Shown here in pieces: positions 19,274 through 35,789 of a stretch of 40,026 bases of DNA. The stretch spans positions 1 through 40,026 of the forward strand of contig JAHQWJ010000049.1 of NCBI GenBank assembly GCA_029856125.1. Direction: 5' to 3'. The first letter of the stretch is position 1. Every line of letters starts with the position of its first letter. This stretch comes from Promethearchaeia archaeon. GTDB taxonomy: Archaea; Asgardarchaeota; Lokiarchaeia; Sigyniarchaeales; SOKP01. The position numbers and the translations under genes were made by a program. The notes under the pieces are model-generated. The model saw only the letters and a program-made list of their open reading frames with translations. It was not told the origin of the DNA and made no database searches.

Positions 19274-20077
19274 ATGTCTAGCGAAACTCCCGATAATGTT
19301 AAAACTTCTTTACGTGCGATTGGATTAACAGATTATGAGATTTCAATATATCTCACTTTAATTTCTAAAGGACCTATGGATGCAAGAGAACTTTCTGACG
19401 CAAGTGGCGTTCCATATTCTCGAATTTATAATATTTTGACTCAATTAGAAAAGGAAAAAATGTTCATTCTAAGAGAAGAAAACACTCGTCCATCGACTTA
19501 TTTTGCAAAAAGTCCTGACGAAGTTCTAATTATCGCAAAGAAACACCTAACCGATAATTTTAATAACCACTCAAACAAAATCATCCACATGCTTAAACCT
19601 ATTTACGAATCTCATGACACTCCTATAAAAATTGCCTTATATGTTCACCGAGGACGTGATGTATGTATCAACCGCAGTATTGATCTAATCAATCGGGCTA
19701 AAAACTCTCTTTACTTTGTTGCTCCCTATTATGAGTTTTTAGATGTATTTTTTGACGATGTTAAGAAAGCAAGAGCGAGAGGTGTTATTGATATAAAAAT
19801 GCTTGTTGAAGAAGACGCAATGAAAGACAACAAATTTAAAGAAATTATCGAAAAATATAGTGAAATCTCTGAAATTCGCTCTCGCAATCAAGTATTTGGA
19901 GCAAGCGTAGTAATGGACGAAGGAGAAGATGCATTTATTATCCTGACTCAAGGTTTTTTCAAGGCATTAAGCTATTTCGGCGTAGCTACCGATCATATAG
20001 CCTTTGGACCCGCAAGCAACTTTTATTTTGATTATTTATATAAATCAGCAAAACCATTGAAAAGTAAGACGAAATAA
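19274..20077 (+). CDS. TrmB-family transcriptional regulator
   Basis: IGLTDYEISIYLTL, ARELSDASGVPYSRIYNILTQL, RPSTYFAKSP, followed by an effector domain. Confidence 0.92.
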   Translation: MSSETPDNVKTSLRAIGLTDYEISIYLTLISKGPMDARELSDASGVPYSRIYNILTQLEKEKMFILREENTRPSTYFAKSPDEVLIIAKKHLTDNFNNHSNKIIHMLKPIYESHDTPIKIALYVHRGRDVCINRSIDLINRAKNSLYFVAPYYEFLDVFFDDVKKARARGVIDIKMLVEEDAMKDNKFKEIIEKYSEISEIRSRNQVFGASVVMDEGEDAFIILTQGFFKALSYFGVATDHIAFGPASNFYFDYLYKSAKPLKSKTK

Positions 20078-20136: not shown

Positions 20137-22143
20137 TCACTTATTCTCTTTTCCATTAAAAACAGGGATTATTATATGTGATGGGTGATTCTTATCGTGA
20201 TATATTGTTTGAGTGGCGATTTGAAATTTCTTTTTATTTTTTTTCCCAGCAAGATTAGAATTCACATCAAATCTTGGAAAATTACTTGAAGTAATCTCTA
20301 ACCGTATTTTATGATTCTTAGGAAAATAAATAGCAATGGATCCGATTACGATTTCGAATTTATAAATCTTGTTAGGATTAACTAGTTCAGGTTCATCCAA
20401 GTTACCGTTACGGTAACGCGTTCTAACCCCTGAATCAATTACATTTATAGATTTTTTATTGTTTGGGTAAACATCAACTAATTTAACCATGAAATCCGTA
20501 TCTTCTACGGTAGTTGACGCGTAAAATATTATTTTTACTTCGCCAATTATTTCCAACCCTTTTTCAAGGACACTGGTAGTGAAAATTAGTACGTCGTCAC
20601 CTCTTTCAATATCAGTTTGGTCTTGAGGACCACTCAATAAAAACAAATTTCTCCCGCCTTTAGTAATCACTGGATTGGAAGGGTCAAATAGGTATTGATC
20701 TGGTGGTTCTTCTTTAGGTTTGTTTTTAGAAAGAAAGCCGTTACCGTTTAGGCTGTTACTTTTCCCATCTGAGTGAAGATATAACTTTAAATCAGTTGAA
20801 GTTGGAGGCCATTTGTAAAAAGCTCTCCAGATATCCTTGTTTAATATATAGATTTGTAATGGAGGAATTTCAGATAAAAGCGATTGTTCTCCTTTTAAAC
20901 AACAATCGTACCACCAGAAGGGGAGGATTTTTTGTAAGAATCTAAAATCATCTTTTAAATGTGAATATTTCAATGGTTTTAATAAAAACTTATCCATATT
21001 TATATGACTCCACGGCCCTATGATCATTTTAAACTTCTCTCTGAAAAAATCTGGTGCGTTTTTTTGTATTAACATAACATCTCGCATCATATGCTCTATG
21101 AACATGTCATACCACCCCCCTATAAAAAGCGTAGGTGTGTTAAATTCATAGTTGAGTCCAAATGCGTATGGAGATAGGTCATAGTTGTGAAATATATTCC
21201 TTTTGTAAAACATTTCCTTTATGAGTTTTGTAAACGATCCATCGTCCATCCTTGAAACATTGACATCTGTTTTATACACTCTATTTATCATTTTCATAGA
21301 GTATTTGGGATTATCGAAGGATGCCATATCTGACAACTTTGGTTTTTTGGAATCTATAGGTTCGTTAAAAAAACTATTAGAAGGATTAAAAAAGAGTTGT
21401 TTGTAGTATCCATTCCTATCCCATTGGTCAAAATCCATAGTTGTTAATTTCTTCATTGTAGAAATCATTATTAAGTATATAGCTCCTGATAACCCCACAG
21501 GATACAATCCCCTAGGATGCCAAAACACATTGGAATAAGAGCTATGAATAGGATTTAAACAAGTAAGTAAATTATCATTATCCCAAGATACGGCTAACTG
21601 AGTTATACCTAAGTACGATAACCCCCACATTCCTATTTTCTTGTTATACCAAAATCGACGAGTGATCCAACGTAAAGTTTCGAGTCCATCTTGTCTTTCG
21701 TACATATATAGTGAATTCGTACCGTACTCGCTTGATCGCCCGCAACCCCGAATGTCTTGAATCACAGCGACGTACCCTTTAGAGGCGATGAAATATCCTA
21801 GAATGCTAAGGCGATCTTTCCAATAAGGCAGTCTTACTAGAATAGTCGGCCCCGATCCCTTTTTTTTGTAAAGTTCTTTAGGTAAGTAAATATCTGTCGC
21901 TAATTTGCCCCCATCTTCAAGTTCTATCAGCACCTCTTTTAGCCTAATAGAATTAGTTTCTGGTAAAAAACCGACATTTTGGAGTCTTTTTGATCGCCCA
22001 ATTACTTCAAAAATTTTAAAAAGAGGAGTATAAATATAATCCACAAGAAATGCCATGCGGATAAATATAGAACTTAAAGGGGCTAGAAGAGTTGGTAATT
22101 TCAAACCGATCTGTATATCTTTAGGGTTAAACTTTCTTTTCAT
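20137..22143 (-). CDS. CocE/NonD-family serine hydrolase
   Basis: LATDIYLP, QDIRGCGRS, GMWGLSYLG nucleophile elbow, GGWYD, IGPWSH, ITSSNFPRFDVN. Confidence 0.92.
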   Translation of the reverse strand: MKRKFNPKDIQIGLKLPTLLAPLSSIFIRMAFLVDYIYTPLFKIFEVIGRSKRLQNVGFLPETNSIRLKEVLIELEDGGKLATDIYLPKELYKKKGSGPTILVRLPYWKDRLSILGYFIASKGYVAVIQDIRGCGRSSEYGTNSLYMYERQDGLETLRWITRRFWYNKKIGMWGLSYLGITQLAVSWDNDNLLTCLNPIHSSYSNVFWHPRGLYPVGLSGAIYLIMISTMKKLTTMDFDQWDRNGYYKQLFFNPSNSFFNEPIDSKKPKLSDMASFDNPKYSMKMINRVYKTDVNVSRMDDGSFTKLIKEMFYKRNIFHNYDLSPYAFGLNYEFNTPTLFIGGWYDMFIEHMMRDVMLIQKNAPDFFREKFKMIIGPWSHINMDKFLLKPLKYSHLKDDFRFLQKILPFWWYDCCLKGEQSLLSEIPPLQIYILNKDIWRAFYKWPPTSTDLKLYLHSDGKSNSLNGNGFLSKNKPKEEPPDQYLFDPSNPVITKGGRNLFLLSGPQDQTDIERGDDVLIFTTSVLEKGLEIIGEVKIIFYASTTVEDTDFMVKLVDVYPNNKKSINVIDSGVRTRYRNGNLDEPELVNPNKIYKFEIVIGSIAIYFPKNHKIRLEITSSNFPRFDVNSNLAGKKNKKKFQIATQTIYHDKNHPSHIIIPVFNGKENK

Positions 22144-22187: not shown

Positions 22188-22466
22188 TTACCATGTAATT
22201 GTAATTGCATTTTCGGGGCAAACTTCGACGCATTTAAAACAACGACTACAGAGTGAACCCCATATAGGCGTGATTCTCCAATCTTGAGGATCGTACATGT
22301 CTTTTTGCTTCTTTTCAGTGCCTAACGTTTCGTGCATAATAAATACCGCTGGATCACATGCTCTCATACACAAACCGCAGTTTCTGGGATCAATTCTTCC
22401 TTTTTCCCCACAAATAGAATAATCTATTCTGATCTTAGTTCTTTTCTTTTTCTTTGCTTTACTCAT
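22188..22466 (-). CDS. Ferredoxin (4Fe-4S dicluster type)
   Basis: C-(x)9-CGLCMRACDP and CSRCFKCVEVCP. Confidence 0.88.
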   Translation of the reverse strand: MSKAKKKKRTKIRIDYSICGEKGRIDPRNCGLCMRACDPAVFIMHETLGTEKKQKDMYDPQDWRITPIWGSLCSRCFKCVEVCPENAITITW

Positions 22467-22474
22467 ACAATCAC

Positions 22475-23344
22475 CTAATACGTTCCATCAAATCCAGGAT
22501 ATTCTTCTCTAGGAATTAATTTTAAAGCGTCATGTTTACAGGCGTGACGGCAAACACCGCATCCATAACACTTATTATAGTCGATTATAACTCTATCCAT
22601 TGAAGGAATAAACCGAATAGCGCTTAATTGACACATAGCGACGCAGGATTTACATCCTTGGCATTTGTCCTGATCTAATTGAATAATGTATTCCGCTTTA
22701 TACATCACATTGATATCAAAATTGTTACGCAGTGTAAACGCTCCACATTCAGGACTCTCACACGAACAAATTGCATTTATATAGGGTATTGGTTGAAACC
22801 AAACGCTTGAGATATAACCCTTTTTGTTGAATTCTTCCAATTTTTCAACTGCAGTTTCTCGGTCAATCCGTACTACTCTGTCTTTTGGTATGAAACGGGG
22901 CAATTTTTCGAGGACCTCTGAGAGAACACCAAAGTTTATGCAAACTGCTTCTTTTTTCTTTCTTTGCATCCAACGACACATACAATAATTACATATTATT
23001 GGTTCAGCCGCAAGTTCTGACATGATAATTTGAGCATCCTCTAAGGGTATAACCTGGCCAAAATGTCCGTCAGCTCTTACGGGATTTCTCCTTTTCTTTT
23101 GGCTGTGGATCATGTTTTCAGCCCTCCAACGAAGGATTTTTCCAATAACGGGCATCTTTAACTTATATCCTAAATCTTTAGAAGAAAATCCCATTATTTT
23201 TCTAATATAGACTTGCTCAAAATTCATCCATTGCTCCGTTAAGTAATCTTTCATGTTACTTTCTTCAGCAAGCTCATCGGAGTAATTTCTAGCATTCATA
23301 TACCATTTTTTACCGGCTCCGTGAGACATACACCATTGACACAT
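22475..23344 (-). CDS. 4Fe-4S-binding protein with an additional Cys-rich N-terminal domain
   Basis: MCQWC, CNYCMCR, ICSCESPEC, and C-terminal CQGCKSCVAMC / CYGCGVCRHAC. Confidence 0.88.
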   Translation of the reverse strand: MCQWCMSHGAGKKWYMNARNYSDELAEESNMKDYLTEQWMNFEQVYIRKIMGFSSKDLGYKLKMPVIGKILRWRAENMIHSQKKRRNPVRADGHFGQVIPLEDAQIIMSELAAEPIICNYCMCRWMQRKKKEAVCINFGVLSEVLEKLPRFIPKDRVVRIDRETAVEKLEEFNKKGYISSVWFQPIPYINAICSCESPECGAFTLRNNFDINVMYKAEYIIQLDQDKCQGCKSCVAMCQLSAIRFIPSMDRVIIDYNKCYGCGVCRHACKHDALKLIPREEYPGFDGTY

Positions 23345-23495: not shown

Positions 23496-24425
23496 TTAAT
23501 CTGATTTGAATGTTCTTAAGTGTTCCATCATTCCTACGCCAATTTCTCCTGTATTTAAATCTTGAACAATAGCCATCTGTTCAAATAATTCAGTATATCC
23601 TCCAGAGAAATTTCGAGCAAAGCGAATAAAAGAATTTTTTCCGAACCTTTTTGCTGCTATAGTGTGTTTTGTTCCGGTAATATCTTCAAATATGTATGTT
23701 GTAGAAAGAGGACTCTTAAATGGGTCTGTGGCGCATATCGTATCGATATTTAATTTGGATAGTGCGGTATTTCCCTTTACATTAGATATATGACCGGATA
23801 AGTCTATTTTTTCATTAGCATAATCTTTCCGGAAAGCACAAGACCAATTTTTGAATTGAAAATGACCGGCATACCATTTATCAAACTGATGCCAATCTCG
23901 AAAGCCCCAACTTTTATCGCGTTGTCCAAATCCATTAATATCTACGATTTCTCCATTTTTCTTAGTAAGTTTTCCAGTTACTATTCCTGATGACTCAAAA
24001 TGCTGATGCCAAGATTTAGAAGAATCCATACCAAAATTGTGGGTTGGAAATCTCGTCTTAAAATGTAATTCAAGGCTTAGTTTTCGTGAATTGTAATTGA
24101 TTATCCACTCCTCAAATGGTTTTACGAGCGTGTACGAGAGCATATTTTCTCGCAACATAACATTTATATCGTCGTTGTAATCCTGTAGGTGGGGTTCTTT
24201 ATAATACACTTCATTTCTGTCTTCTAAGAATAGAAGAAATACAAATTCTCTTTTTTTTTCATTCGGAACAATCCCAATTGTTGAAAATCCTGAAATTTTA
24301 TTTTCCAAATCTGCCCAATTAAAATAGTAAGATTCGCGCCATTTTAATTCGTTGGTAGGTTGATGTAGTAGTTCATCACGATTATCTAAATCGGGAGGTA
24401 CGTAATATTTGCGCATGCCATTCAT
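23496..24425 (-). CDS. Lipocalin-like (CrtC/AttH/tocopherol-cyclase-like) beta-barrel protein
   Basis: WRESYYFNW, HFESSGIVTG, GFGQRDKSWGFRDW. Overlaps the upstream gene by ATGA. Confidence 0.6.
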   Translation of the reverse strand: MNGMRKYYVPPDLDNRDELLHQPTNELKWRESYYFNWADLENKISGFSTIGIVPNEKKREFVFLLFLEDRNEVYYKEPHLQDYNDDINVMLRENMLSYTLVKPFEEWIINYNSRKLSLELHFKTRFPTHNFGMDSSKSWHQHFESSGIVTGKLTKKNGEIVDINGFGQRDKSWGFRDWHQFDKWYAGHFQFKNWSCAFRKDYANEKIDLSGHISNVKGNTALSKLNIDTICATDPFKSPLSTTYIFEDITGTKHTIAAKRFGKNSFIRFARNFSGGYTELFEQMAIVQDLNTGEIGVGMMEHLRTFKSD

Positions 24426-25579
24426 TCCTCAGGGAGCAAATATAACGACGGGCCTTCTTTTCTTTTTTTAGATTTACTCCTAAAAAGTCTAGGTATACCC
24501 GGGTCAAAATCGCTCTCCAAAAACATTGGTACATATGTATTCATTGTTCTCTCCGTAAGATCCCAATTTATATCACCAGTAATTCCCACGAAATTTGTAT
24601 ATCTCGCATATCCATAACAGTAAGCGTACGCACCAGCAATTAACCTTTGTTTTCTATCCCATTTTGAAAACTTCAAAAATAACTCTTTATTTGCTCTTTC
24701 CGAATAGTCTTTAAATGAATCTAGAATGTTCAAATCAAGATTTTTAACCTTTTCTCCACTACGAGTTAAAAGGGCCACACCTGTGATGTTATCTGTAAAA
24801 TCTTGAGGGATTGAATCAAGAGTGGCGAAATCATCGAAATTATTCTCTACATCTTTCAATCGAAAAGCAAAAGCAATATTGTTAAAAGGTGCTTTGGCAT
24901 TTGTTTCAGACCAAGGAAAATGTGGATTATTACCGTTGTAAAGATGTGAAATCTCTCTAAAAACTAAGCTTTCGTTATCGCTAATTTTATAGGGTCCATG
25001 ATCACATATCTTTGCTCTTGCTTCGCATTCGTCGAGAAAAGAAACAACCTCAAGATTAGCTACAGTTCTTTTCAGTTTAATTACTTCTTCTTTAGAAAGA
25101 TCTATAACATTGTTTAAAGTTTTCTCAACGGTAGAACGATTTAAAACCATGTTCTTCTTGTTAGAGTCATATACAGATATTTTTTCATCCTTGAAATAAG
25201 AGGTGGCTAACCTTTTCCAGAAATCTAATACAAATAAAGTTTGCTCTCTCTTTTCTGGGCTTTCACTTCTAGGATCAGCCCCATTCCTTTGAATTTCTCC
25301 CATTCTTCCAACCATGTAATATAACGGAATATAAAATATACTTAGAGCATGAATTTCTGACAGAATTTTTCGACTTTCCCGTCCCATAATTTCTGGAGTT
25401 GTTTTTTTAGAGATTTTTTTCAAAATATCGTATAACATATCGTAAGCGTTATAAAATGATACGCAAATATAAGCAGTTACGGGGAAAAGCTGTGTCTCTA
25501 ACAGACCGCGCTTTGATACTTGGTAATCAACTAGCTCGGAAGCATGAGCTATTAAATCGTTTGCTTCTTTAATGTCCAT
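24422..25579 (-). CDS. Conserved-looking hypothetical protein, candidate substrate-binding subunit of the split phosphotransferase
   Basis: 385 aa with FPVTAY, ECEARAKICDHGPY and FPWSE motifs. Divergent from the His-swivel gene. Confidence 0.7.
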   Translation of the reverse strand: MDIKEANDLIAHASELVDYQVSKRGLLETQLFPVTAYICVSFYNAYDMLYDILKKISKKTTPEIMGRESRKILSEIHALSIFYIPLYYMVGRMGEIQRNGADPRSESPEKREQTLFVLDFWKRLATSYFKDEKISVYDSNKKNMVLNRSTVEKTLNNVIDLSKEEVIKLKRTVANLEVVSFLDECEARAKICDHGPYKISDNESLVFREISHLYNGNNPHFPWSETNAKAPFNNIAFAFRLKDVENNFDDFATLDSIPQDFTDNITGVALLTRSGEKVKNLDLNILDSFKDYSERANKELFLKFSKWDRKQRLIAGAYAYCYGYARYTNFVGITGDINWDLTERTMNTYVPMFLESDFDPGIPRLFRSKSKKRKEGPSLYLLPEE

Positions 25580-25740
25580 AAATTAATCCTTCAAAATCTT
25601 TCCTTTTATATTTAATTTTAAACTTAATTCTATTTAAATCTATGAAATAGTTTTAAGTTTTTTAAATACATTTAATTACAATATTTAAGATTTTGATATA
25701 TTGAACACTAAGAAAGAAATTACACAGTGGAATTATTTAT

Positions 25741-26097
25741 ATGAGAAAAGTTGGCGAAGGCTTGTCATGTTCATCTAAATCAGAGGTTACAGGAAATTTA
25801 GTCTATGTTACTAAGATTGAAGACGTGATTGATCTATTTGATAAAGCAAAAGATAAAATATGTTTGGTACACGACGCAGGGATGACAACTCTAGGGCCGA
25901 TTTTATCAGATTTAGCTGGTACTATTTGTACTACGGGTGGGGCTGGTTCCCACTTAGCTATTATCTCGAGAGAGTTTGGAATCCCTTGTATCATGGGAAT
26001 TAAAATCTCTACTAACGAGATCCCATCGCTAATCGATAAAAAAGTAAAAATTACGCACGATGGAGAAGATAAAGGCTTTTTACATGTTGAAGATTAA
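25741..26097 (+). CDS. Stand-alone PEP-utilising enzyme mobile (phospho-His swivel) domain
   Basis: GTICTTGGAGSHLAIISREFGIPCIMG. Confidence 0.92.
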   Translation: MRKVGEGLSCSSKSEVTGNLVYVTKIEDVIDLFDKAKDKICLVHDAGMTTLGPILSDLAGTICTTGGAGSHLAIISREFGIPCIMGIKISTNEIPSLIDKKVKITHDGEDKGFLHVED

Positions 26098-26136
26098 GTC
26101 CTTGGTTAATAATAAGAAAGTCTTTACAATTACATT

Positions 26137-27114
26137 ATGGAATATATAACAAGTTTAAAAGAAGGTAAAGAGGATCCTCGTCTTTTTGGAGGGAAAGCAT
26201 CTAACCTTTTTACATTAATTAAAAATGAGATAAATGTCCCTCCCGGATATGCTATAAGTACTAAAGCTTTCACATTGTTCCTCGAAGAATCTCACATTAA
26301 ACCTATCATTAAAGAAATTTTTGCGAAAGAGTATAACCCGAAAGAAGTAATTGAAATTTCAACAAAGATCAAGAATTTATTCTTAGCTTCTGATATACCA
26401 TCAAATATAACCTCAGAGATACAACAAAATCATAGCAAAGAATTTACAGATATCGATGAGCATAGATCTTATGTAGTTAGATCATCGGCTAATTATGAAG
26501 ACTCAAATAGTTTTTCGTTCGCTGGACAAGCTCAATCGTTTCTCAACATCAGAAGCATCACAGAAATCATTTTATCGATAAAAATGTGTTGGGCTTCTTT
26601 GTTTTCTCCTCAAATTCTATTATATCTTTTACAATTAAAAAAAAGAGGATTCAATATTACTCCTCTGAATTTAGAAATGGCGATTGTAGTTCAAAAAATG
26701 TTAAAACCTCAAGTTTCAGGCGTATTATTCACTGCAAATGTAATCAACAACAATAAAGAACAGATGATGATTAATTCTACCTGGGGTCTAGGGGAAACAA
26801 TCACCAACAATACAATTATTCCCGATTTAATAATAATAAAGAAAGGTAATTGCGAAGTAATGAAAATTTCAATTGGAAAAAAAGAAAAAACTTCTATTGC
26901 TAATCCAAAAGGTGATTCTACTATTCTTATTAACACTGAAAGAAAATTTCAGGAAGAGTGCTCTTTAAATTTAACACAACTTAAGCAAATTCATAATTTA
27001 GGCTTAAAGTTAGAAGAGCTTTTTAATTATCCTCAGGATATTGAATGGGCAATAGAAAACAACTCATTATATGCTTTACAGTCGCGACCTATCACAACGC
27101 TGCCAAAAAACTAA
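26137..27114 (+). CDS. Stand-alone PEP-synthase/PPDK N-terminal ATP-grasp domain protein
   Basis: GGKASNL, VPPG, VRSSANYED..SFAGQ, CWASLF, VVQKM, SGVLFT, WGLGE, PQDIEWA, LQSRPIT, then stop. Confidence 0.92.
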   Translation: MEYITSLKEGKEDPRLFGGKASNLFTLIKNEINVPPGYAISTKAFTLFLEESHIKPIIKEIFAKEYNPKEVIEISTKIKNLFLASDIPSNITSEIQQNHSKEFTDIDEHRSYVVRSSANYEDSNSFSFAGQAQSFLNIRSITEIILSIKMCWASLFSPQILLYLLQLKKRGFNITPLNLEMAIVVQKMLKPQVSGVLFTANVINNNKEQMMINSTWGLGETITNNTIIPDLIIIKKGNCEVMKISIGKKEKTSIANPKGDSTILINTERKFQEECSLNLTQLKQIHNLGLKLEELFNYPQDIEWAIENNSLYALQSRPITTLPKN

Positions 27115-27174: not shown

Positions 27175-27633
27175 TTACTTGAGAAAAGCTCGCTTTCCTA
27201 AATAAATAAAAAGTTCTCCTAATTCAAAAACGGTAAGTGGAAAGATTAGATTTGCCATGTCATGACGTAAATCTTGTTTATCTTTACCAGCGGCAATTAG
27301 TTTCTCAATGTCTTCAACGTAATCGTCCATGTTCATGAATAATATCTCAATTTTATCGCAGCCTGTTAATTCCTCGATATCTTTATCCAAATGCGTTTCT
27401 ACCTGGTTTAAAAGTCCTATTTTTAACTTTGGTTCTAACTCATATTTGGAGATGAGTTCGTTGATCTCTTCAAGAATAATATTTATGGTTAAGTTCCAAT
27501 CTTGATTATCCTTATATTTTGGTATCAAAACATCGCTAATGATTATTTCAAAAAGAGTTTGGGGTACTTTTTCGTCAAATTCTACCTCTGAACCATTCCT
27601 TAATTTTATTGTTTTAACCATTTCCAACCTCAA
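27175..27633 (-). CDS. Hypothetical acidic helical protein
   Basis: 152-aa ORF. No family recognised. Confidence 0.65.
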   Translation of the reverse strand: MRLEMVKTIKLRNGSEVEFDEKVPQTLFEIIISDVLIPKYKDNQDWNLTINIILEEINELISKYELEPKLKIGLLNQVETHLDKDIEELTGCDKIEILFMNMDDYVEDIEKLIAAGKDKQDLRHDMANLIFPLTVFELGELFIYLGKRAFLK

Positions 27634-28103: not shown

Positions 28104-31100
28104 ATGCCCATTTTACCTGCATCTGATCCTCTTGAGATTAATTGGACTACCTCGACTTGGGGCGCAGATAACGTTCCTGACAAGTTTGAGTCTTATTACA
28201 TTAGAGGAGACGGATACGAAGAAAGGGGTAGTAATTTTGACAAAACTATCGAAATTAAGATCTCCAACCGATTTAGTTTATATCACGATTATTTAAAGAC
28301 CGATTACTCTCAGAGATACGACGGAGGTAGCACGATCTTTAAAGTTGAAGGCGTTTTTGTAACTCCTCCCGACGGACAAGTGTTTTACACTTCCGATAGA
28401 ACAGCGTTCATGAGCTCCGAAGCTAAAACTTCCGGTCATTATCTCTTCTACGATAGCGATCAGAACGGATTTTACGAAACGGTGTTCGTGTTAAGTCCCG
28501 ATCAAGACGCCGACGGACAATATAACGTAATCTCTATCGGCTACAACTACGATGGAAAGCACGGTTTTATCCCTTACCAAATAATTGAAGAAACCACGCA
28601 ATCAAGCACCTATTACCCGCTAGTTGCTAGTAGCGGAGTCCATCGTACTATGACGAAGACGATAGACAAAAAGTTCCCTGACGAGTTCACGAGCGATGTG
28701 CCCGCAAAAGACCACATTTTCGAAATCTCTAAATTAATTAAAAAATCAGACCAAGTTGAGATGATGCCAGAATTATTTTACGAAGTCTACGAAAGACAAT
28801 ACGCAGACGCTTGGACAGATTACGGTTTAATAAAAGTAAGTTCTATCGTTGAACAAATCGCTATGACATTAACAGCGGGAACAGCTTCTGCCGCATTTAT
28901 TGCCGGCGTTGCTGCAGCATGGGCTCCATACGCAGCGCCATTAGTATTTGCCGGAGTATATTTCTTGTTATCATGGGTAAACAGCGAAGAAAAAGCAAAA
29001 ACTGCTAAAGCTCTGAATGACGCAAGAACTTACTATCCGAGCGATGGTGATTTCAGCGAACCTACGTCTTTAAGCAAAAAGACCGCGAGCGATAGGCTTT
29101 TTGACGATTCTTTAGCCGCATACAACCAAGGACATCCAGGTGCGTATTACGCCACCGTAATCGGAGGTGAACCGGGAAACATGTTCACGGGACAGATAAT
29201 GGTTACTCCTCCGAATTCCATGGGGGACATTAAAGCCCTAATTAGTTCCTACGAACATTATGTTAAAGATTACGAAATATACGCAAGCGGGTTAAACCGA
29301 GAAAATAGAGTTGGTGAAGTTTCAGAAGATCATTTAGATAATGTGTATAGCTGGTATTTAGAAGACGCTAGAAATTCGTTTGAAAACAATTTAGATTACT
29401 TTATTCTATCCAGCGACCTTCCTTCCTACAACGGAAAAGAGTTTTACTCGTTTAACGCTGGTATATCGGACTTCAGAGACGCTTTGATAAACTATTATCG
29501 ATACAACACTTTAGGGTATTTGGAAAACGAGATCGAGGGCGTATCAGGGGGAGAATTCAACGCAATCAGACCGATGAACATTAATGGAATTCCACAATAT
29601 AGATACGTAAGCACGAAAGACGACATTATCAGCACCACCCAACCCTTATCTCCGTTATATGGCCCAATAGTCGTCAGCCAAGATACATACGACTCGCTCG
29701 AGGTTGAGGACGCTAAAATATCGGTGAAAACTCAAGTTGCTTACTCAGAAAGCTCCGAGGGTATCGACACCACCGCTTTAGATTTGTTAGAACTTACAAA
29801 ATATAAAGCTAAGATTCCACTTTCTGAAAGGAAATTTGCTTACGATGTAAGTTTAGTTACGGTTGACGTGGTAAAGATTGTAATGGTCAAAGTTTATGAA
29901 TCTAATTATTTCCACGATTATTGGTATTGGGAAAAAACTTACGAACTGCTTGATTCGTATTCCTTAGAATTATCTCCTGACGATTATTGTCTTGAAGGAG
30001 GTAATTTATATTTCTTCGAAACGCTCGAAGAACTAACGTTTGGCTCTCGAGAAAATTTCGATTCCATATGGGACGGAGAAGACGCTTTATTATTTAACGT
30101 TAACATTAACTTCCCTATTATAATACCTGACACCTTAACTGACGTTATAACCTATACCACTGGTTCTGATATAGGTAGAATAAATACATTTTTAGATTCA
30201 GGAGAATTTGTAAACGCAGAAATAATGGTTCTCGATACAACTACTAACGATTTTGCAAAAAACGCTTTAGCGCAGACCACTCAACACGCAATAAACGATT
30301 ACTTCAATCTTTACACCGTAGCGGCTACCAACGCCCTATCACAAGCAGAGCTCGATTTTACCATAGAGATTACGTTCTGGTCTACTTTAATTTCGTCCGC
30401 AATTCTTCTACCGGGTTCGATCGCAGCACAGGCGTCGAGAATGCCACTAGCAGGTCTCGCAGCTCAACTTCCGAAGCTCGTGGCAAAACAATTGATAGCG
30501 CTCAGTACAGCTCCGATAGCGGAAATAATAGAAGAAGTATACGTCGATTCCTTTATCGAAGCGTGGATAGAAGGTCAAATTGCTATTCTCGGCGGGGACG
30601 AACAACTCGCACGATTCCTTTCGATGCTCGTAACTTCCTTAAGAGAAGCCTCGAACACTGGAATAGACATAGTAGTGGGCGCGTTTAGTTCAGACACCTC
30701 GTCCGATATAGCCACACAAAGAGCAGATTTAATTCAAGACACTAAACTCTCTTGGAAATCTTTGGTAAGCCCCGAAATTGTGGTCGGAGTTTCGCTGGCA
30801 GCCCTCAGTTTTGCGTCCGGCAACGCAGCTTTCGGAACAGGTTTCCTTGGCGGCGTTTTTACTGACACGCTCGGAATTCCCGTTGAGGAATATATTAATA
30901 TTCATACCGCTAAACAACAACTCCTCAAAGTAGATAATCAAATAACAGATATTAAATCTGAAGCGGTAAAAGCTTTAGACTTTATTTCGCAAAGGTACAC
31001 TCAACCAATCAACGTTCCAGCTACGATTAGATCTAGTACAATTGTAGATGTAGTAGCTCATACTCAAGCGTTATCTACTTATTCCTCTGTAATGAACGAG

Positions 31101-34100
31101 TTTTACGAAGAGACCTTACAAAATCAATTTTTAACAAAAGAAACTCAAGAAGAAAAACTCAAATTAATTGAATTTAAACAAGAATCATTAGGTGAATTAG
31201 AAAATACTAAAGATGTTCAGAATTCGATCGAGAGTCAAGTGCAAGATAGTCTTGGACTTGAACCTGTTGTTGCAGATTTTAGTAATGCCCCTGAAATCAT
31301 AAATAAGGTTTTAGCAGAATTATATGATCCTCGTATCAGGGTGCTGGGTAAAGGTTACGACATTGATTTTTTAAGACTGGATATTCCAAGCATTCTGGAG
31401 GTCGGAAATGCTGAAGCCTGGCTCAAAGATGAATTTAATCTAAAAAACAAGGTTAAATTATACTACGGTCGGGACGATTTAGCTACGTTAGTATTCAAGT
31501 ACATTGCTGATGATCCAAAGCGCGCAAATAAGCCTATAACACTTTCTGCTCTTTTAACATGGCTCGATTATAGCTTGAGCGAAGAACTATATATTGTCGA
31601 AGTTGACAGTTCTGGGGATAGGATTCAAGATTCAGATGAGATTGATCCTGCTACCGGAGTGAAGTTTGGCCCAGTTATTGCCAAATCACTGTCAGCAGCT
31701 AAATGGAGGATAACTCAGCAACATGGTAATTCCCAGATAACAGGCAAAGATAGTAATATTAAGACAAGATTTCCCGGCTATTGGGAAATTAGAATAATGT
31801 GGAGCTCCTATTATTCTGGCGGTTTTAATTTCGATCAAATGGGATACACTCTTGAAGATATTAAAGCGTTGGACGATCTTTACAATGAGCTAATTCACCC
31901 TTTAAGTGTTAGCTTTTTGAAAGGAAATGGATTATATGAAGACAATTTACCCTTCGATATTGAAAATTTCAAAGATCAGTTTAAAGAAATTTTTTACGAC
32001 TTAAAATTCTTAGCAGAAGAAGTTACTGATAAGATAACTACGAGCGGAGATAAAGACGAGGACGAGCGAAGACTTGCTGAGTGGAAAGAGTTAATAGAAG
32101 CTACTTATAGAATTGTATGCGAACCAGCATTTTCTGGAACAACTTCATCAGACTTCTTTAAGATTGTCATGGAACGGATCAGATTTACAGTATTAGATAC
32201 GGTTATGAGGAGTAAAATTCTCGTAGATAAAAGCTCCTCCAGTGGCGGTCCTAGTGTTTACGAAGTAGCAACTAAGATAAGAAGTTTTTTAAACAATAAA
32301 CAAAAGGTAGGAGACGTAAACGCAGACGTTTTAAGTGCCAATGGAAGAATGGCTTTCTTTACTTTCTTCAGCGAAGCTTTTTTTGATGACTCTCAGGGTA
32401 AGAAATTAAAAATTTCTACAGAACTAAGGAGGGTAGTAGGAAGAGACCAAGAGGCTTCAGACTATTTTGGGGATTTAATACAAAGATATGTTGATACATT
32501 TGTTTCAAGCGGTTTTTCATTTGTTGGTTTTATAGACGCATTTAACTACGGTCTCGGGGATGTTCTTGGAGGTAATGAATTTCTTGGCGGTCAAATGTCT
32601 GAAATCGAGAACTCTATGCTAGGAATTGACATCTCTGAAATCTCTAAATGGGCTCCTTCAGATCGACGGTTTTTTGATAACTTAGTAGCAATCTTTTTAA
32701 ATGCTTACTTAGCCAACCCGACTAAAGGAACTATGGATCCTAAAGGGATATCTGGTTCCCAAAGAGGTGAAGCTTCTAATGATTGGATCTCCGGTCAATT
32801 TATGACTGTGTTACTTGAAATGTCAAAAGTTGATGCTAAAATTCGCGATATATTACCTTATCTAATTACTGTCGCCGCTCCCTCAAACAATCCTACTTCG
32901 ACGTTAAAATCATTAATGAATTACGTGGCCAAAAAGGGGAGTTTCGACATGTTTAGGAACGGAAAAGAAGGTGCAAAACTAAAAATGCCTTCCAAATATA
33001 CTTTTCTTTTTGAATTTGCAAATTATTTAAATGCTGAAATAGACCTAACAAGCGTTGTTGATGGAGATTTAAACACCGCCGTACAAAGAGTCCAAGATTA
33101 TATAAATAATAACGAAGAGGAAATTACGAGGGAGATGAAAAAATTAGCTAAGGGAATCTATACTTCCCACGAGACTATCAAACCACAGTTTTACCAAGCT
33201 ATTGTTCAATTTTTTACGAGCGAAACTAAGCTAGAATCTTTGTTAAGGAGCCGTATAGATGGAGGTTACGATTTAGCCTTTAAAGATTTTGTAAATATGT
33301 TATTTAAACAAGATGTCGACGGAACTACTAGACAATTAACTCCCGCAATCCTTCCTTCCGATATTGAGATTTGGGACGGCGATAAATGGATCGCTCTTCC
33401 TTACGAATACAAGTTCGATTCTGCTCACGTAATGGTACACTACAGGGGTAGTTCTGGTGAAATTAAGAACGGTATTTTGAAAGTCGATACAATTAGTACT
33501 ACGTTGCCTGATGGCGTTTACGAGGGGTATTACGACCGTACTAGAAAAACTAATAATGTTTATCATAACATTTATTTGTGCGATTCCAACGGAAAACAAC
33601 TCTTTAGCGAGGTAAAACTTCGTCTCGAAACAGGAAAAAAGACTAAATTCGAAGTGAGGAGGAAAGTGGATAAGCATGAATGGTACGAGCAATTTGTAGA
33701 TCAAGTGTCAAAAAATCCAATCAAATCATTCTATATTTCCTTTGGTATTTCTTCCGGAAATCAATTTACTTTCTTTTTACAAGACACAGTATTGTCTATG
33801 AGCGCCAACTCCAAAAGTTATGAGCGATACCTAGTCGATCTTAAATTTAAGGAGAGGTCTAAGGTAACTTCTGAAGGACCTCTTTTAGGTTTAAATATTC
33901 AAGAAGATCTTTACTTTAGAATAAACTCTATACTCGGTTTTCTATATCAATTGGAACAATTTAGCCAGACGGGAGAAGATATTTTTATATCTGAAAGAAT
34001 GGTTCAATTAGAAGGTAAATTAGCTCCCTCTGGAGAGCAATTCTCATTCGATTATTATCAGAAGGTTTTAACGGAATTATCTCCAAGTAACATTGACTTA

Positions 34101-35789
34101 AAGAATTTAGATATCTCAGATACAAAAATTTACTATGAAACATTGTTAAAGATTTTAAAGAATGCGATAGGGAATGAGTTTTTCAAAGATTACAAATCTC
34201 TTAAGCTCATAGAAGGAAAAGAATTTTCATCTGGTGTTGAATTAGTTGTTGATAGTCAAAATGACGATCTTATGCTAATTGTAAAAGTTAACCAAGTATT
34301 GAAAGAGATTATGGGATTCTCAGGGAGCATACTGTTTAAGTTAGGATTTCTAAATTTCGAAAAGTTAGCCACCAATTCTTATGTAGTGAAAGCTATGGGG
34401 CAAACCTACGACAACTTTCTCAAATTTATGAGAAGAGCTAACATTGAATCTATATTCACTCCTACTTCTTATTCTACAATACAAGAACTTATTTCATCCA
34501 TAATGTTTGTGGGTTATAAGGAGACCATTAAGATCAAAAAGGATGGATCTCCCGAATTCAGAGTTATTAATTACGAGCAAAGAACTTCAATCTTATCTGA
34601 TTTATACGACAAAGATATAGTTTTGACATCTCTGGATAACAAATATATAATGATTAATAATTTTCTGGATACTTTTTACGCCGAATACAAAAGGGAAGCC
34701 GATTTATCTCAAATTGGTCGAGCTCTATCAATAGTTTTAGATTCACAATTTAGCGACCAGACAACTGATCAACTAATTAGATTGGGTATGGATCCTCGGC
34801 ATGTAAATTCATTCCGAACAATGGCTTACAACTGTCTGAATAAATACTTATTCTCCGCTGCAGACTATGGAGGAGATCCCCAACAAGATTATGCAGTCAG
34901 GTTTAGAGAAAAGCTTTCAGAATTTATTAGCACTGAGGGCATTTCTGTCAAATTAAATTTACAAGCGTTAAGGGTGCCATTGGCAGATTATTTAAGAGCA
35001 TACCCTATTCCGGGTTTGACTTTAGAGATGTTATTTGACATATTTGCTACCATAAATTTAGATAAATCCGATTACGATAATCTCTTCAAACAGTTTGAAG
35101 GTTATAAGGTTACAAAACACATATTAGCAACCGGAGATAAAGGTTGGAGACATCAGCCTGACTATATTTTTAGAACACGGATTGATCACATTATAAGCCT
35201 TGCTAACTTTTTTGCTTACATGGCAAAGACTTATGGAGGGACGAACCAAAAAGTCAGGATTTATGGTTATTCTTTGAAGAGGGAAGGACTTGGTTACAAG
35301 ACATCCAACGTAAACGCGTATTTCCCTAAAATCAACGCTCAAATTCAAGATCCGAACATGCCAAAAAATAATTTACAATACTTCGAACTTGACTTTAACA
35401 ATTTAGATCAGTTTGATTTTATATTGTTTTTAGGGTCGTTCTTAGCAGATGAGCAAACCTTCGTGGTTAAAACAAATGGAATGGAGGGAAACGAGTTTTT
35501 ATTTGCTTTTAATGCCGTAAGCGGAGCTATAGATATTGGAGACATTTATCCAAGCCTTCGGAGCGACGAAGTAAAACCTTGTTCTATGGATGATTTCAAC
35601 GCTGGTCTTAAATGGTCAGACGATATCGCACACAACGATTTAGAAACCCTTTTCAATTCTATAATGAACGCATTTAAGCAAGATAACTTCGTAACTGTGC
35701 ATAGGTATAATGAGATTGAAGTCTGGAGAGAATATTGCGAGAAAGTATCCGCGTTAAAAGATTTCTCTACCCTCGTAAATACTCAGTAA
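28104..35789 (+). CDS. Giant hypothetical protein (at least 2561 aa); frame open from 27867, possibly 5'-truncated
   Basis: 7.7-kb stop-free frame. DxDxNG/DxDxDG motifs (YDSDQNG, DQDADG) and three hydrophobic Ala/Gly-rich segments. Confidence 0.9.
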   Translation: MPILPASDPLEINWTTSTWGADNVPDKFESYYIRGDGYEERGSNFDKTIEIKISNRFSLYHDYLKTDYSQRYDGGSTIFKVEGVFVTPPDGQVFYTSDRTAFMSSEAKTSGHYLFYDSDQNGFYETVFVLSPDQDADGQYNVISIGYNYDGKHGFIPYQIIEETTQSSTYYPLVASSGVHRTMTKTIDKKFPDEFTSDVPAKDHIFEISKLIKKSDQVEMMPELFYEVYERQYADAWTDYGLIKVSSIVEQIAMTLTAGTASAAFIAGVAAAWAPYAAPLVFAGVYFLLSWVNSEEKAKTAKALNDARTYYPSDGDFSEPTSLSKKTASDRLFDDSLAAYNQGHPGAYYATVIGGEPGNMFTGQIMVTPPNSMGDIKALISSYEHYVKDYEIYASGLNRENRVGEVSEDHLDNVYSWYLEDARNSFENNLDYFILSSDLPSYNGKEFYSFNAGISDFRDALINYYRYNTLGYLENEIEGVSGGEFNAIRPMNINGIPQYRYVSTKDDIISTTQPLSPLYGPIVVSQDTYDSLEVEDAKISVKTQVAYSESSEGIDTTALDLLELTKYKAKIPLSERKFAYDVSLVTVDVVKIVMVKVYESNYFHDYWYWEKTYELLDSYSLELSPDDYCLEGGNLYFFETLEELTFGSRENFDSIWDGEDALLFNVNINFPIIIPDTLTDVITYTTGSDIGRINTFLDSGEFVNAEIMVLDTTTNDFAKNALAQTTQHAINDYFNLYTVAATNALSQAELDFTIEITFWSTLISSAILLPGSIAAQASRMPLAGLAAQLPKLVAKQLIALSTAPIAEIIEEVYVDSFIEAWIEGQIAILGGDEQLARFLSMLVTSLREASNTGIDIVVGAFSSDTSSDIATQRADLIQDTKLSWKSLVSPEIVVGVSLAALSFASGNAAFGTGFLGGVFTDTLGIPVEEYINIHTAKQQLLKVDNQITDIKSEAVKALDFISQRYTQPINVPATIRSSTIVDVVAHTQALSTYSSVMNEFYEETLQNQFLTKETQEEKLKLIEFKQESLGELENTKDVQNSIESQVQDSLGLEPVVADFSNAPEIINKVLAELYDPRIRVLGKGYDIDFLRLDIPSILEVGNAEAWLKDEFNLKNKVKLYYGRDDLATLVFKYIADDPKRANKPITLSALLTWLDYSLSEELYIVEVDSSGDRIQDSDEIDPATGVKFGPVIAKSLSAAKWRITQQHGNSQITGKDSNIKTRFPGYWEIRIMWSSYYSGGFNFDQMGYTLEDIKALDDLYNELIHPLSVSFLKGNGLYEDNLPFDIENFKDQFKEIFYDLKFLAEEVTDKITTSGDKDEDERRLAEWKELIEATYRIVCEPAFSGTTSSDFFKIVMERIRFTVLDTVMRSKILVDKSSSSGGPSVYEVATKIRSFLNNKQKVGDVNADVLSANGRMAFFTFFSEAFFDDSQGKKLKISTELRRVVGRDQEASDYFGDLIQRYVDTFVSSGFSFVGFIDAFNYGLGDVLGGNEFLGGQMSEIENSMLGIDISEISKWAPSDRRFFDNLVAIFLNAYLANPTKGTMDPKGISGSQRGEASNDWISGQFMTVLLEMSKVDAKIRDILPYLITVAAPSNNPTSTLKSLMNYVAKKGSFDMFRNGKEGAKLKMPSKYTFLFEFANYLNAEIDLTSVVDGDLNTAVQRVQDYINNNEEEITREMKKLAKGIYTSHETIKPQFYQAIVQFFTSETKLESLLRSRIDGGYDLAFKDFVNMLFKQDVDGTTRQLTPAILPSDIEIWDGDKWIALPYEYKFDSAHVMVHYRGSSGEIKNGILKVDTISTTLPDGVYEGYYDRTRKTNNVYHNIYLCDSNGKQLFSEVKLRLETGKKTKFEVRRKVDKHEWYEQFVDQVSKNPIKSFYISFGISSGNQFTFFLQDTVLSMSANSKSYERYLVDLKFKERSKVTSEGPLLGLNIQEDLYFRINSILGFLYQLEQFSQTGEDIFISERMVQLEGKLAPSGEQFSFDYYQKVLTELSPSNIDLKNLDISDTKIYYETLLKILKNAIGNEFFKDYKSLKLIEGKEFSSGVELVVDSQNDDLMLIVKVNQVLKEIMGFSGSILFKLGFLNFEKLATNSYVVKAMGQTYDNFLKFMRRANIESIFTPTSYSTIQELISSIMFVGYKETIKIKKDGSPEFRVINYEQRTSILSDLYDKDIVLTSLDNKYIMINNFLDTFYAEYKREADLSQIGRALSIVLDSQFSDQTTDQLIRLGMDPRHVNSFRTMAYNCLNKYLFSAADYGGDPQQDYAVRFREKLSEFISTEGISVKLNLQALRVPLADYLRAYPIPGLTLEMLFDIFATINLDKSDYDNLFKQFEGYKVTKHILATGDKGWRHQPDYIFRTRIDHIISLANFFAYMAKTYGGTNQKVRIYGYSLKREGLGYKTSNVNAYFPKINAQIQDPNMPKNNLQYFELDFNNLDQFDFILFLGSFLADEQTFVVKTNGMEGNEFLFAFNAVSGAIDIGDIYPSLRSDEVKPCSMDDFNAGLKWSDDIAHNDLETLFNSIMNAFKQDNFVTVHRYNEIEVWREYCEKVSALKDFSTLVNTQ

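What the first reader, a model, noticed from the sequence alone, without database searches (positions are those of the whole stretch)
24422..27114. Split dikinase-type phosphotransferase: separate His-swivel, ATP-grasp and putative substrate-binding subunits
Seen: a 118-aa His-swivel gene (SH motif intact) precedes a 325-aa ATP-grasp gene, each with its own ATG and stop. This order is the reverse of PEP synthase, and no pyruvate-binding barrel is nearby. A 385-aa unknown protein is transcribed divergently. Established: rifampin phosphotransferase and phenylphosphate synthase use the same two domains plus a dedicated substrate domain to phosphorylate non-pyruvate hydroxyls. Inference: a three-subunit ATP-to-AMP phosphotransferase acting on an unknown alcohol, phenol or lipid-like substrate, with the 385-aa protein as the specificity subunit.
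Basis: partly seen in the sequence, partly recalled or inferred. Interest (0 to 1): 0.7.

Follow-up and report, generated by a model that had tools for sequence, protein, structure and literature searches.

The report
Three-part dikinase with phosphate lyase
An Asgard archaeon encodes an ATP-binding protein, a free phospho-histidine carrier and a conserved 385-residue partner whose predicted fold matched no solved structure, next to a relative of 25-phosphosteroid lyase; together they most likely phosphorylate an unknown alcohol and then expel the phosphate, an enzyme arrangement I found described in no paper.

Summary
There are separate genes for a 118-aa His-swivel (His71 intact) and a 325-aa PPDK_N ATP-grasp. 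They are divergent from a 385-aa protein (X385) that has no Pfam or NCBIfam match.

- In 400 Asgard genomes, X385 occurs in 115 and the free swivel in 107. All 107 lie within the 115.
- The genes are neighbours in most of 40 loci examined.
- Swivel::X385 fusions exist in Actinobacteria.
- The 99%-complete genome has no orphan pyruvate-binding barrel.

X385 folds confidently (pLDDT 96.5) but has no convincing match among solved structures.

The gene overlapping X385 (DUF7065) is a sequence relative of 25-phosphosteroid lyase (profile E 4e-10). A motif Asp that a deposited lyase variant replaces by Asn is invariant here. The same genome also pairs a second DUF7065 gene with a single-chain RPH-type dikinase, in 30 of 30 loci.

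Best reading: a three-component small-molecule dikinase (ATP to AMP) with a new acceptor domain feeds a phosphate-eliminating lyase, giving ATP-driven dehydration of an unknown alcohol. The neighbouring Fe-S genes are frequent but not obligatory partners.

This scan has already flagged the same system on other genomes. No paper describing it was found. The substrate and chemistry are untested.

The parts
25741..26097 (+). Free phospho-histidine swivel protein (118 aa). Catalytic His71 is the codon at 25951-25953.
   Evidence: PF00391, E 5e-11. His71 aligns with the catalytic His of PEP synthase chain 8a8e. Orthologues are found in 107 of 400 Asgard genomes, all of which also have X385.
26137..27114 (+). 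Stand-alone ATP-grasp (PPDK_N) nucleotide-binding subunit, 325 aa.
   Evidence: PF01326, E 7e-73, near full length. The best solved relatives are PEP synthase 8a8e (E 4e-53) and rifampin phosphotransferase 5hv6/5fbs (about 1e-43). It lies next to the swivel gene in 26 of 40 loci.
24422..25579 (-). X385: a conserved 385-aa protein without a family assignment, and the inferred phosphoryl-acceptor or substrate subunit.
   Evidence: No Pfam or NCBIfam hit. AF2 model pLDDT 96.5. No Foldseek PDB hit at E<=1e-3, and best VIA Z is 4.3. It is fused behind a swivel domain in P0165, P0170, P0251 and P0260. Near-invariant residues over 81 sequences are R24, R92, R188, G195, P196, Y197, L213 and G316.
23496..24425 (-). 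DUF7065 protein (309 aa), a relative of 25-phosphosteroid lyase. It overlaps the X385 gene by 4 nt. The invariant motif is GQRDKSWGFRDW, with the D170 codon at 23916-23918.
   Evidence: PF23213, 57 bits against a cut-off of 27. The family profile hits PDB 9fzn/9g2i/9g4c '25-phosphosteroid lyase' at E 4e-10. It is adjacent to X385 in 38 of 40 loci.
25580..25740 (.). AT-rich divergent intergenic region (161 bp) with several TATA-like boxes, shared by the two transcription units.
   Evidence: Read directly from the sequence. Promoter function is inferred only.
22188..23344 (-). Two Fe-S proteins: 289 aa (a Cys-rich N-terminal domain plus 2x[4Fe-4S]) and a 92-aa ferredoxin. They are frequent neighbours but not obligatory partners.
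   Evidence: Fer4 domains. In the locus in 20 of 40 cases. However, the 289-aa protein occurs in 195 of 400 genomes, including lineages and congeners without X385, and is missing from some genomes that have X385.
20137..22143 (-). CocE/NonD-family hydrolase (668 aa), a neighbour specific to this lineage.
   Evidence: TIGR00976, E 1.5e-83. Present in only 4 of 40 loci.
19274..20077 (+). TrmB-family transcription regulator, convergent on the operon. A lineage-specific neighbour.
   Evidence: PF01978, E 5e-17. Present in 6 of 40 loci.
27175..27633 (-). 152-aa protein of unknown function, convergent on the ATP-grasp gene. It is conserved beside the locus only in the window's own family.
   Evidence: No Pfam hit. 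Present in 7 of 40 loci.

Best explanation
The locus encodes a three-component small-molecule dikinase coupled to a phosphate-eliminating lyase.

Proposed steps:
1. The 325-aa ATP-grasp protein binds ATP.
2. His71 of the free 118-aa swivel protein takes the beta-phosphoryl group, releasing AMP and Pi, as in PEP synthase, RPH and HpeHI.
3. The phospho-swivel docks on X385, which binds the second substrate, and its hydroxyl group is phosphorylated.
4. The translationally coupled DUF7065 protein, a relative of 25-phosphosteroid lyase, expels the phosphate as a leaving group, most likely forming an alkene.

The net reaction would be an ATP-driven dehydration of an otherwise unreactive alcohol. That alcohol is probably tertiary or hindered, and probably hydrophobic.

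What is shown: domain identities, the intact catalytic His, gene linkage, co-occurrence, the swivel::X385 fusions, homology to 25-PSL, and a second dikinase-lyase pair in the same genome.

What is inferred: that X385 is the acceptor site, the AMP-forming stoichiometry, elimination as the lyase chemistry, and everything about the substrate.

A thermodynamic rationale, also inferred: the ADP-forming 25-hydroxysteroid kinase is fully reversible with Keq<1, because tertiary phosphoesters are very energy-rich (PMC8449060). A dikinase that spends two anhydride bonds would make such a phosphorylation irreversible.
For: - **Domains and catalytic His:**
- **Neighbourhood in 40 loci from eight Asgard families:** X385 lies beside DUF7065 in 38, the free swivel in 29 and PPDK_N in 26.
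- **Co-occurrence in 400 genomes:** X385 is in 115 and the free swivel in 107, and all 107 are among the 115. In the window's own genus, 25 genomes have both, 17 have neither and none has only one.
- **Fusions:** an N-terminal swivel is fused to the X domain in four 50%-identity clusters, including proteins of Gordonia otitidis and Citricoccus zhacaiensis.
- **Paralogue loci:** these carry swivel-X-swivel-X tandems with one ATP-grasp and one DUF7065 gene (L081).
- **Actinobacteria:** their loci repeat the theme with swivel-X pairs, a DUF7065-like gene and a barrel-less PPDK_N+swivel protein.
- **Lyase homology:** the DUF7065 profile matches solved 25-phosphosteroid lyase at E 4e-10. One deposited variant carries Asn at the Asp of the RDxSWG motif, and that Asp is invariant here.
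- **Independent pairing in the same genome:** a 909-aa RPH-architecture dikinase is followed directly by a second DUF7065/DUF7064 gene (hhalign probability 99.5%). This pairing holds in 30 of 30 loci.
- **No orphan barrel:** no unpaired PEP-binding barrel exists in the genome.
- **Precedent for separate subunits:** HpeHI, CreHI and PpsAB are dikinases with a separate ATP-grasp subunit (PMC12167813).
Against: - No biochemical data exist for any component.
- X385 shows no detectable similarity to any known acceptor domain. It has no NCBIfam hit, hhalign probability is 0.2 against the central domain of the genome's own RPH-like enzyme, and the fold search found nothing above Z 4.3. Its role therefore rests on context alone.
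- Homology to 25-PSL is moderate and covers mainly the N-terminal half. The fold of the DUF7065 protein was not modelled here.
- Eight X385-positive genomes lack a swivel hit at E<=1e-12, although most of these are incomplete genomes or weak X385 hits.
- In some loci (G147, G149) X385-DUF7065 stand without a nearby swivel or ATP-grasp gene. There the phosphoryl donor would have to act in trans.
- The known 25-PSL works with an ADP-forming kinase annotated as phosphotransferase-family, not with a dikinase (PMC8449060).
Confidence: 0.6

Rival explanations
1. The three proteins form a dikinase, but phosphorylation is the end point. It would trap, scavenge or inactivate a compound, as with RPH on rifampin or HpeHI on phenols. 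On this reading the DUF7065 protein performs a separate step, for example CrtC-like hydration or cyclisation, or uses the phosphate as a leaving group for substitution or cyclisation rather than elimination.
For: RPH and HpeHI/CreHI/PpsAB phosphorylate without a following lyase (PMC12167813). The match to 25-PSL is moderate and mostly N-terminal. Hydrolases (CocE/NonD, alpha/beta) and transporters in some loci suggest catabolism or uptake.
Against: X385 and DUF7065 are adjacent in 38 of 40 loci and overlap by 4 nt here. A second, differently built dikinase is also always followed by a DUF7065 gene, in 30 of 30 loci. The motif Asp that a deposited 25-PSL variant replaces is invariant here.
Confidence: 0.2
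2. X385 is not an enzyme subunit but a protein target or relay partner of the phospho-swivel, in a PTS-like phosphorelay that regulates something. The DUF7065 protein, or another protein, would then hold the small-molecule site.
For: X385 matches no known catalytic fold. Actinobacterial loci combine a PPDK_N+swivel protein with additional swivel-X pairs, which looks like a His-to-His relay.
Against: In every characterised relative, the domain fused to or partnered with the swivel is the second-substrate site: the PEPS/PPDK barrel, the RIF-binding domain and HpeH (PMC12167813). X385 has near-invariant Arg residues (R24, R92, R188) and a GPY motif across sequences about 20% identical to the window protein, which suggests a ligand or phosphate site. 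X385 also diversifies into paralogues, each with its own swivel, as expected of specificity subunits.
Confidence: 0.1
3. A split PEP synthase or PPDK whose pyruvate-binding subunit is encoded elsewhere.
For: NCBIfam's best partial hits for both proteins are PEP synthase models.
Against: All scores are far below the family cut-offs. The genome is 99% complete and has PF02896 barrels only inside a complete PEP synthase and a complete PPDK. The free swivel tracks X385, not any barrel.
Confidence: 0.02

Closest known systems
Two-component small-molecule dikinases HpeHI, CreHI and PpsAB (phenylphosphate synthase), and single-chain rifampin phosphotransferase RPH (PMC12167813)
   Same: A PPDK_N ATP-grasp, which is a separate subunit in HpeI and PpsB. 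A swivel His carrier with a GGxxSH motif, with Ser before the His as in PpsA and CreH. No PEP/pyruvate barrel. A dedicated second-substrate module. The expected reaction is ATP to AMP + Pi + phosphoester.
   Different: Here the swivel is a free 118-aa protein, so there are three components rather than two or one. The partner X385 shows no detectable sequence or fold similarity to the RIF-binding-type domain of HpeH, PpsA or RPH. Where fused, the swivel lies N-terminal to X, not C-terminal. The system is coupled to a lyase rather than to a carboxylase, or to no follow-up enzyme.
25-hydroxysteroid kinase (25-HSK) plus 25-phosphosteroid lyase (25-PSL) of Sterolibacterium denitrificans: ATP-dependent dehydration of a tertiary alcohol (PMC8449060, PMC11061730; PDB 9fzn, 9g2i, 9g4c)
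   Same: The logic of phosphorylating an unreactive alcohol and then eliminating the phosphate. The DUF7065 protein is a sequence relative of the solved 25-PSL and keeps the RDxSWG Asp.
   Different: 25-HSK is a roughly 40-kDa, ADP-forming, fully reversible kinase annotated as phosphotransferase-family. It is not a phospho-His dikinase, and its gene is not next to a lyase gene (PMC8449060). Nothing here shows a steroid substrate, and no Mo-hydroxylase genes lie in the locus.
PEP synthase / pyruvate phosphate dikinase
   Same: The ATP-grasp and swivel domains, and the phospho-His swivelling mechanism.
   Different: No PEP/pyruvate TIM barrel. The regulatory Thr two residues before the His is Gly here (GGAGSH), read. 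The genes are split.

Membership tests
Small-molecule dikinases of the RPH / HpeHI / PpsAB type | PPDK_N-type ATP-grasp nucleotide-binding domain | tested here: met
   PF01326, E 7e-73, positions 3-314 of 328. RPH ATP-grasp structures match at about 1e-43.
Small-molecule dikinases of the RPH / HpeHI / PpsAB type | Swivel domain with a catalytic His in a Gly-rich GGxxxH motif | tested here: met
   PF00391, E 5e-11. His71 in GGAGSH aligns with the catalytic His of 8a8e.
Small-molecule dikinases of the RPH / HpeHI / PpsAB type | RIF-binding-type second-substrate domain joined to the swivel (HpeH, PpsA, CreH; the PRK08296 and PRK06241 models) | tested here: inconclusive
   X385 gives no hit to any NCBIfam model. 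hhalign probability is 0.2 against the central domain of the genome's own RPH-like enzyme. No RPH chain appears among the fold-search matches. A missing fold match is not proof of a different fold.
Small-molecule dikinases of the RPH / HpeHI / PpsAB type | Stoichiometry ATP + ROH + H2O -> AMP + Pi + RO-P through a phospho-His intermediate | not testable with these tools
   Requires an enzyme assay.
PEP synthase / PPDK | PEP/pyruvate-binding TIM barrel (PF02896) in the protein or as a partner | tested here: not met
   PF02896 occurs only at C68 (PPDK) and C18 (PEP synthase), both complete multi-domain enzymes, and nowhere on this contig. NCBIfam PEPS scores of 225 and 39 bits fall far below the cut-off of 598.
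25-HSK / 25-PSL ATP-dependent dehydratase system | A 25-phosphosteroid-lyase homologue | tested here: met
   The profile of 32 DUF7065 neighbours hits 9fzn/9g2i at E 4e-10 and 9g4c at E 6e-9, profile positions 16-174 against chain residues 19-182. A single-sequence search found nothing.
25-HSK / 25-PSL ATP-dependent dehydratase system | Conserved Asp of the RDxSWG motif, which the deposited variant 9g4c carries as Asn | tested here: met
   R169, D170, S172, W173, G174 and R176 are invariant in 32 sequences. The alignment shows D in 9fzn and N in 9g4c at this position. That this Asp is catalytic is inferred from the existence of the variant.
25-HSK / 25-PSL ATP-dependent dehydratase system | An ADP-forming phosphotransferase-family kinase (25-HSK type) as the phosphorylating enzyme | tested here: not met
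   None of the nine ORFs of the locus carries such a domain. The only ATP-using proteins are PPDK_N and swivel. The description of 25-HSK is from PMC8449060.
25-HSK / 25-PSL ATP-dependent dehydratase system | A steroid C25 tertiary alcohol as substrate | not testable with these tools
   No substrate information can be derived from the sequence.
Pfam DUF7065 / NCBIfam Rv3169 family | Score above the curated cut-off | tested here: met
   Pfam PF23213 scores 57.2 bits against a cut-off of 27. NCBIfam Rv3169_fam scores only 30.5 bits against a cut-off of 150. The protein is therefore a member of the Pfam domain family but not of the narrower NCBIfam subfamily.

The most novel reading that the evidence does not exclude
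X385 is a new kind of phosphoryl-acceptor domain for swivelling-His dikinases. Together with DUF7065 lyases it would define an undescribed enzyme class, a dikinase-dependent dehydratase. This class would spend ATP to AMP in order to remove unreactive (tertiary, isoprenoid- or sterol-like) hydroxyl groups without oxygen. It would be present in Asgard archaea, Thaumarchaeota and soil Actinobacteria.
Probability: 0.4. Interest if true: 0.75.

Novelty: new variant of a known kind. Interest (0 to 1): 0.63.

Why it matters
If correct, this extends the swivelling-histidine dikinase family in three ways:
- a fully split, three-protein form;
- an acceptor domain with no recognisable relatives;
- a link to phosphate-elimination chemistry, which so far is known from a single bacterial steroid pathway.

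It would give a function to a conserved protein family that has no Pfam entry. That family has 231 clusters at 50% identity and is found in Asgard archaea, Thaumarchaeota, Actinobacteria and Burkholderia.

It would also give a function to many DUF7065 proteins. It points to an anaerobic route for activating inert alcohols in marine-sediment archaea.

The actinobacterial homologues (Gordonia, Rhodococcus, Nocardia, Pseudonocardia) make the hypothesis testable in cultivable, genetically tractable organisms.

Tried and rejected
- **Gene-context look-up:** Context was obtained through the genome search and the fetch from genomes instead.
- **First AF2 model:** the model from 25 close homologues was poor (pLDDT 56) and was not used.
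- **Fold searches with the good model:** Foldseek against the PDB found nothing at E<=1e-3. VIA-align over 48,161 chains gave a best Z of 4.3.
- **PDB sequence search:** the X385 profile found nothing meaningful.
- **DUF7065 against the PDB:** the single sequence found nothing. Only the family profile found 25-PSL.
- **ESM Atlas:** not available for this sequence.
- **Burkholderia and metagenomic 726-728-aa X-domain proteins:** their C-terminal half is not DUF7065 (hhalign probability <0.3).
- **Fe-S proteins:** the idea that they are integral to the system was rejected. The 289-aa protein is in 195 of 400 genomes, including many without X385, and is absent from some that have it.
- **N-terminal domain of the 289-aa Fe-S protein:** no Pfam match, and homologues carry only generic names.
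- **Other recurrent neighbours:** histone-deacetylase-like, methyltransferase, URO-D-like, MFS_2, GlcD/GlcF-like and alpha/beta hydrolase genes are lineage-specific and gave no consistent clue to the substrate.
- **Literature:** nothing on DUF7065. 'Rv3169' returned 15 papers whose titles and abstracts show no functional study of it (full texts were not read). Nothing on three-component dikinases or on a gene-level description of 25-PSL.
- **Expression:** no RNA holder was listed. One perfect 254-nt contig over 25732-25985 comes from a library labelled metatranscriptomic that the tool marks as probably DNA. It is not used as evidence.


Full report
**What is there.** The window comes from a Lokiarchaeia-type Asgard genome. 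Homologues are named Lokiarchaeota or Promethearchaeota by their sources, and G+C is about 30%.

The finding's coordinates hold three ORFs exactly as described:
- 25741-26097 (+), 118 aa;
- 26137-27114 (+), 325 aa;
- 24422-25579 (-), 385 aa, divergent from the other two.

Pfam assigns the first to the PEP-utiliser mobile (swivel) domain, E 5e-11. It assigns the second to the PPDK_N ATP-grasp, E 7e-73, nearly full length. The third matches nothing in Pfam or NCBIfam, even at permissive thresholds.

The swivel's His71 sits in GGAGSHLAIISREFGIP. It aligns with the catalytic His of a solved PEP synthase.

**Surroundings.** The 385-aa gene (X385) overlaps by 4 nt a 309-aa gene of Pfam family DUF7065. 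After that come a 289-aa protein (a Cys-rich N-terminal domain plus two [4Fe-4S] motifs), a 92-aa ferredoxin and a CocE/NonD hydrolase. A TrmB regulator converges on this run.

The 99%-complete genome has four other proteins with ATP-grasp plus swivel. Only two of them, a PEP synthase on C18 and a PPDK on C68, carry the PEP/pyruvate barrel PF02896. No orphan barrel exists. This rejects the idea of a split PEP synthase whose third subunit lies elsewhere.

X385 homologues occur in 115 of 400 Asgard genomes, with a patchy distribution.

I fetched about 17 kb around 40 homologues from eight families. I chose these loci from the hit list; they are not a random sample. I mapped the window's proteins onto them and clustered all ORFs:
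- DUF7065 lies beside X385 in 38 loci.
- A free swivel is present in 29 loci.
- A stand-alone PPDK_N is present in 26 loci.
- The Fe-S pair is present in 20 loci.

A longer paralogue of about 459 aa has the swivel gene directly upstream on the same strand. In one case this forms a swivel-X-swivel-X tandem with a single ATP-grasp and a single DUF7065 gene (L081).

Genome-wide, orthologues of the free swivel (E<=1e-12) occur in 107 of the same 400 genomes. All 107 are among the 115 with X385. In the window's own genus, 25 genomes have both genes, 17 have neither and none has only one. The eight X385-only genomes are mostly incomplete or have weak X385 hits. These genomes are related to each other, so the counts are descriptive rather than a statistical test.

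A profile search of 1.8 billion representatives found 231 clusters of the X family. Four are longer proteins with an N-terminal swivel domain fused to the X domain. They include proteins of Gordonia otitidis and Citricoccus zhacaiensis.

Actinobacterial loci (Gordonia, Nocardia, Rhodococcus, Pseudonocardia, Geodermatophilus) repeat the theme. They hold swivel-X pairs, the fusion, a DUF7065-like gene and a barrel-less PPDK_N+swivel protein.

The family also occurs in Thaumarchaeota and Burkholderia ambifaria.

**What X385 is.** With 81 diverse sequences, AlphaFold gives a confident model: pLDDT 96.5, pTM 0.93. It consists of helices packed around a seven-stranded sheet.

Foldseek finds no PDB match at E<=1e-3. 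An exhaustive VIA-align run gives a best Z of 4.3, below the level the tool itself regards as meaningful. hhalign against the central domain of this genome's own RPH-like enzyme gives probability 0.2.

I therefore cannot relate X385 to the RIF-binding-type domain of RPH, HpeH or PpsA. Sub-domains were not searched separately.

Across members only about 20% identical to the window protein, R188 and G195 are invariant. R24, R92, P196, Y197, L213 and G316 are nearly invariant. That pattern is compatible with a phosphate or ligand site, but this is inference.

**The lyase link.** Earlier notes of this scan, made on other genomes, claimed that the DUF7065 neighbour is a relative of 25-phosphosteroid lyase. 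I tested this independently.

The single sequence finds nothing in the PDB. A profile of 32 neighbours does: it hits 9fzn, 9g2i and 9g4c, deposited as '25-phosphosteroid lyase', at E 4e-10 over about 160 residues. The variant entry 9g4c differs by Asp to Asn in the motif RDxSWG. The corresponding GQRDKSWGFRDW is invariant in my alignment.

The papers I could read describe the pathway as follows:
- 25-HSK phosphorylates a tertiary steroid alcohol and a lyase eliminates the phosphate (PMC8449060, PMC11061730).
- 25-HSK is an ADP-forming kinase annotated as phosphotransferase-family.
- Its reaction is fully reversible, with Keq below one.
- As of those papers, the lyase gene was unknown.

**A second, independent pairing.** Searching the genome for DUF7065 gave a second copy on contig C63. 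It is a 324-aa DUF7065+DUF7064 protein, with hhalign probability 99.5% to my profile. It starts 17 nt after a 909-aa protein that aligns end to end with the RPH-type PRK06241 models. This arrangement is found in 30 of 30 loci examined.

Two differently built dikinases in the same genomes are thus each coupled to a 25-PSL-like gene. This is the strongest contextual argument that these lyase relatives act on dikinase products.

**What is not part of the core.** The 289-aa Fe-S protein occurs in 195 of 400 genomes. These include families and congeners without X385, and it is missing from several genomes that have X385. It is highly conserved in other archaeal phyla too. It is a frequent neighbour, not an obligate partner.

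The CocE hydrolase, TrmB and the 152-aa protein are lineage-specific. Other recurrent neighbours vary by lineage and do not point to a substrate.

**Mechanism proposed.** ATP-grasp plus ATP loads His71 of the free swivel, releasing AMP and Pi. The phospho-swivel then docks on X385 and phosphorylates a bound alcohol. The DUF7065 lyase expels the phosphate to give an alkene.

The precedent for a separate ATP-grasp subunit and for swivel-mediated transfer is HpeHI, CreHI and PpsAB (PMC12167813). Three things are new here: the free carrier, the unrelated acceptor protein and the coupling to a lyase.

Spending two anhydride bonds would overcome the unfavourable equilibrium reported for phosphorylation of tertiary alcohols. 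This is an inference from PMC8449060.

Elimination is the likeliest chemistry. Substitution or cyclisation with phosphate as the leaving group cannot be excluded.

The patchy distribution within a genus suggests an accessory, probably catabolic, role.

**Standing.** The same system has been noted repeatedly by this scan on other genomes. My tests agree with those notes. They add the co-occurrence count, the demotion of the Fe-S genes, the absence of an orphan barrel and the second dikinase-lyase pair. No paper describing the three-part system was found. All functional statements remain untested predictions.

Noticed in passing
Own genome, contig C63:31101-34820 (L098:4099-7820, minus strand): A 909-aa single-chain RPH-architecture dikinase (PPDK_N 25-339, swivel 835-903) is followed after 17 nt by a 324-aa DUF7065+DUF7064 protein. 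The pairing is conserved in 30 of 30 Asgard loci examined. It looks like a second 'phosphorylate then eliminate' module.
   Followed up: yes
window 22475-23344 (-): The 289-aa Fe-S protein has a roughly 215-aa Cys-rich N-terminal domain (it starts MCQWCMSHGAGKKWY) with no Pfam family. It is nevertheless 63-99% identical across Asgard, Bathyarchaeia, Korarchaeota and Thermoproteota, and is present in 195 of 400 Asgard genomes. It is a highly conserved archaeal protein of unknown function.
   Followed up: partly
L083-L097 (Gordonia, Nocardia, Rhodococcus, Pseudonocardia, Geodermatophilus): Actinobacterial clusters hold up to three swivel-X units (one of them fused), a DUF7065-like gene and a PPDK_N+swivel protein without a barrel. 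This suggests a His-to-His relay, or several substrate specificities served by one ATP module.
   Followed up: partly
P0179 and P0151 (726-728 aa; Burkholderia ambifaria and a metagenome): An X-family domain at the N-terminus is followed by about 350 residues with no Pfam match and no similarity to DUF7065.
   Followed up: partly
One search match table (for example G316, G341, G363, G383 with TAG; G062, G276, G382 with TGA; G220, G239, G278 with TAA): Several orthologues of the second DUF7065 gene are reported with one in-frame stop of varying kind. This could be read-through past the true stop, pseudogenes or sequencing errors.
   Followed up: no
window 25732-25985: A 254-nt contig with no differences, starting 9 nt before the swivel ATG, occurs in a marine-sediment library labelled metatranscriptomic. 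The tool marks that library as probably DNA.
   Followed up: partly
window 28104-35789 (+): A 2561-aa ORF with no obvious domains, in a region of higher G+C (0.39-0.41 against about 0.31 elsewhere). Other notes of the scan already flag it.
   Followed up: no
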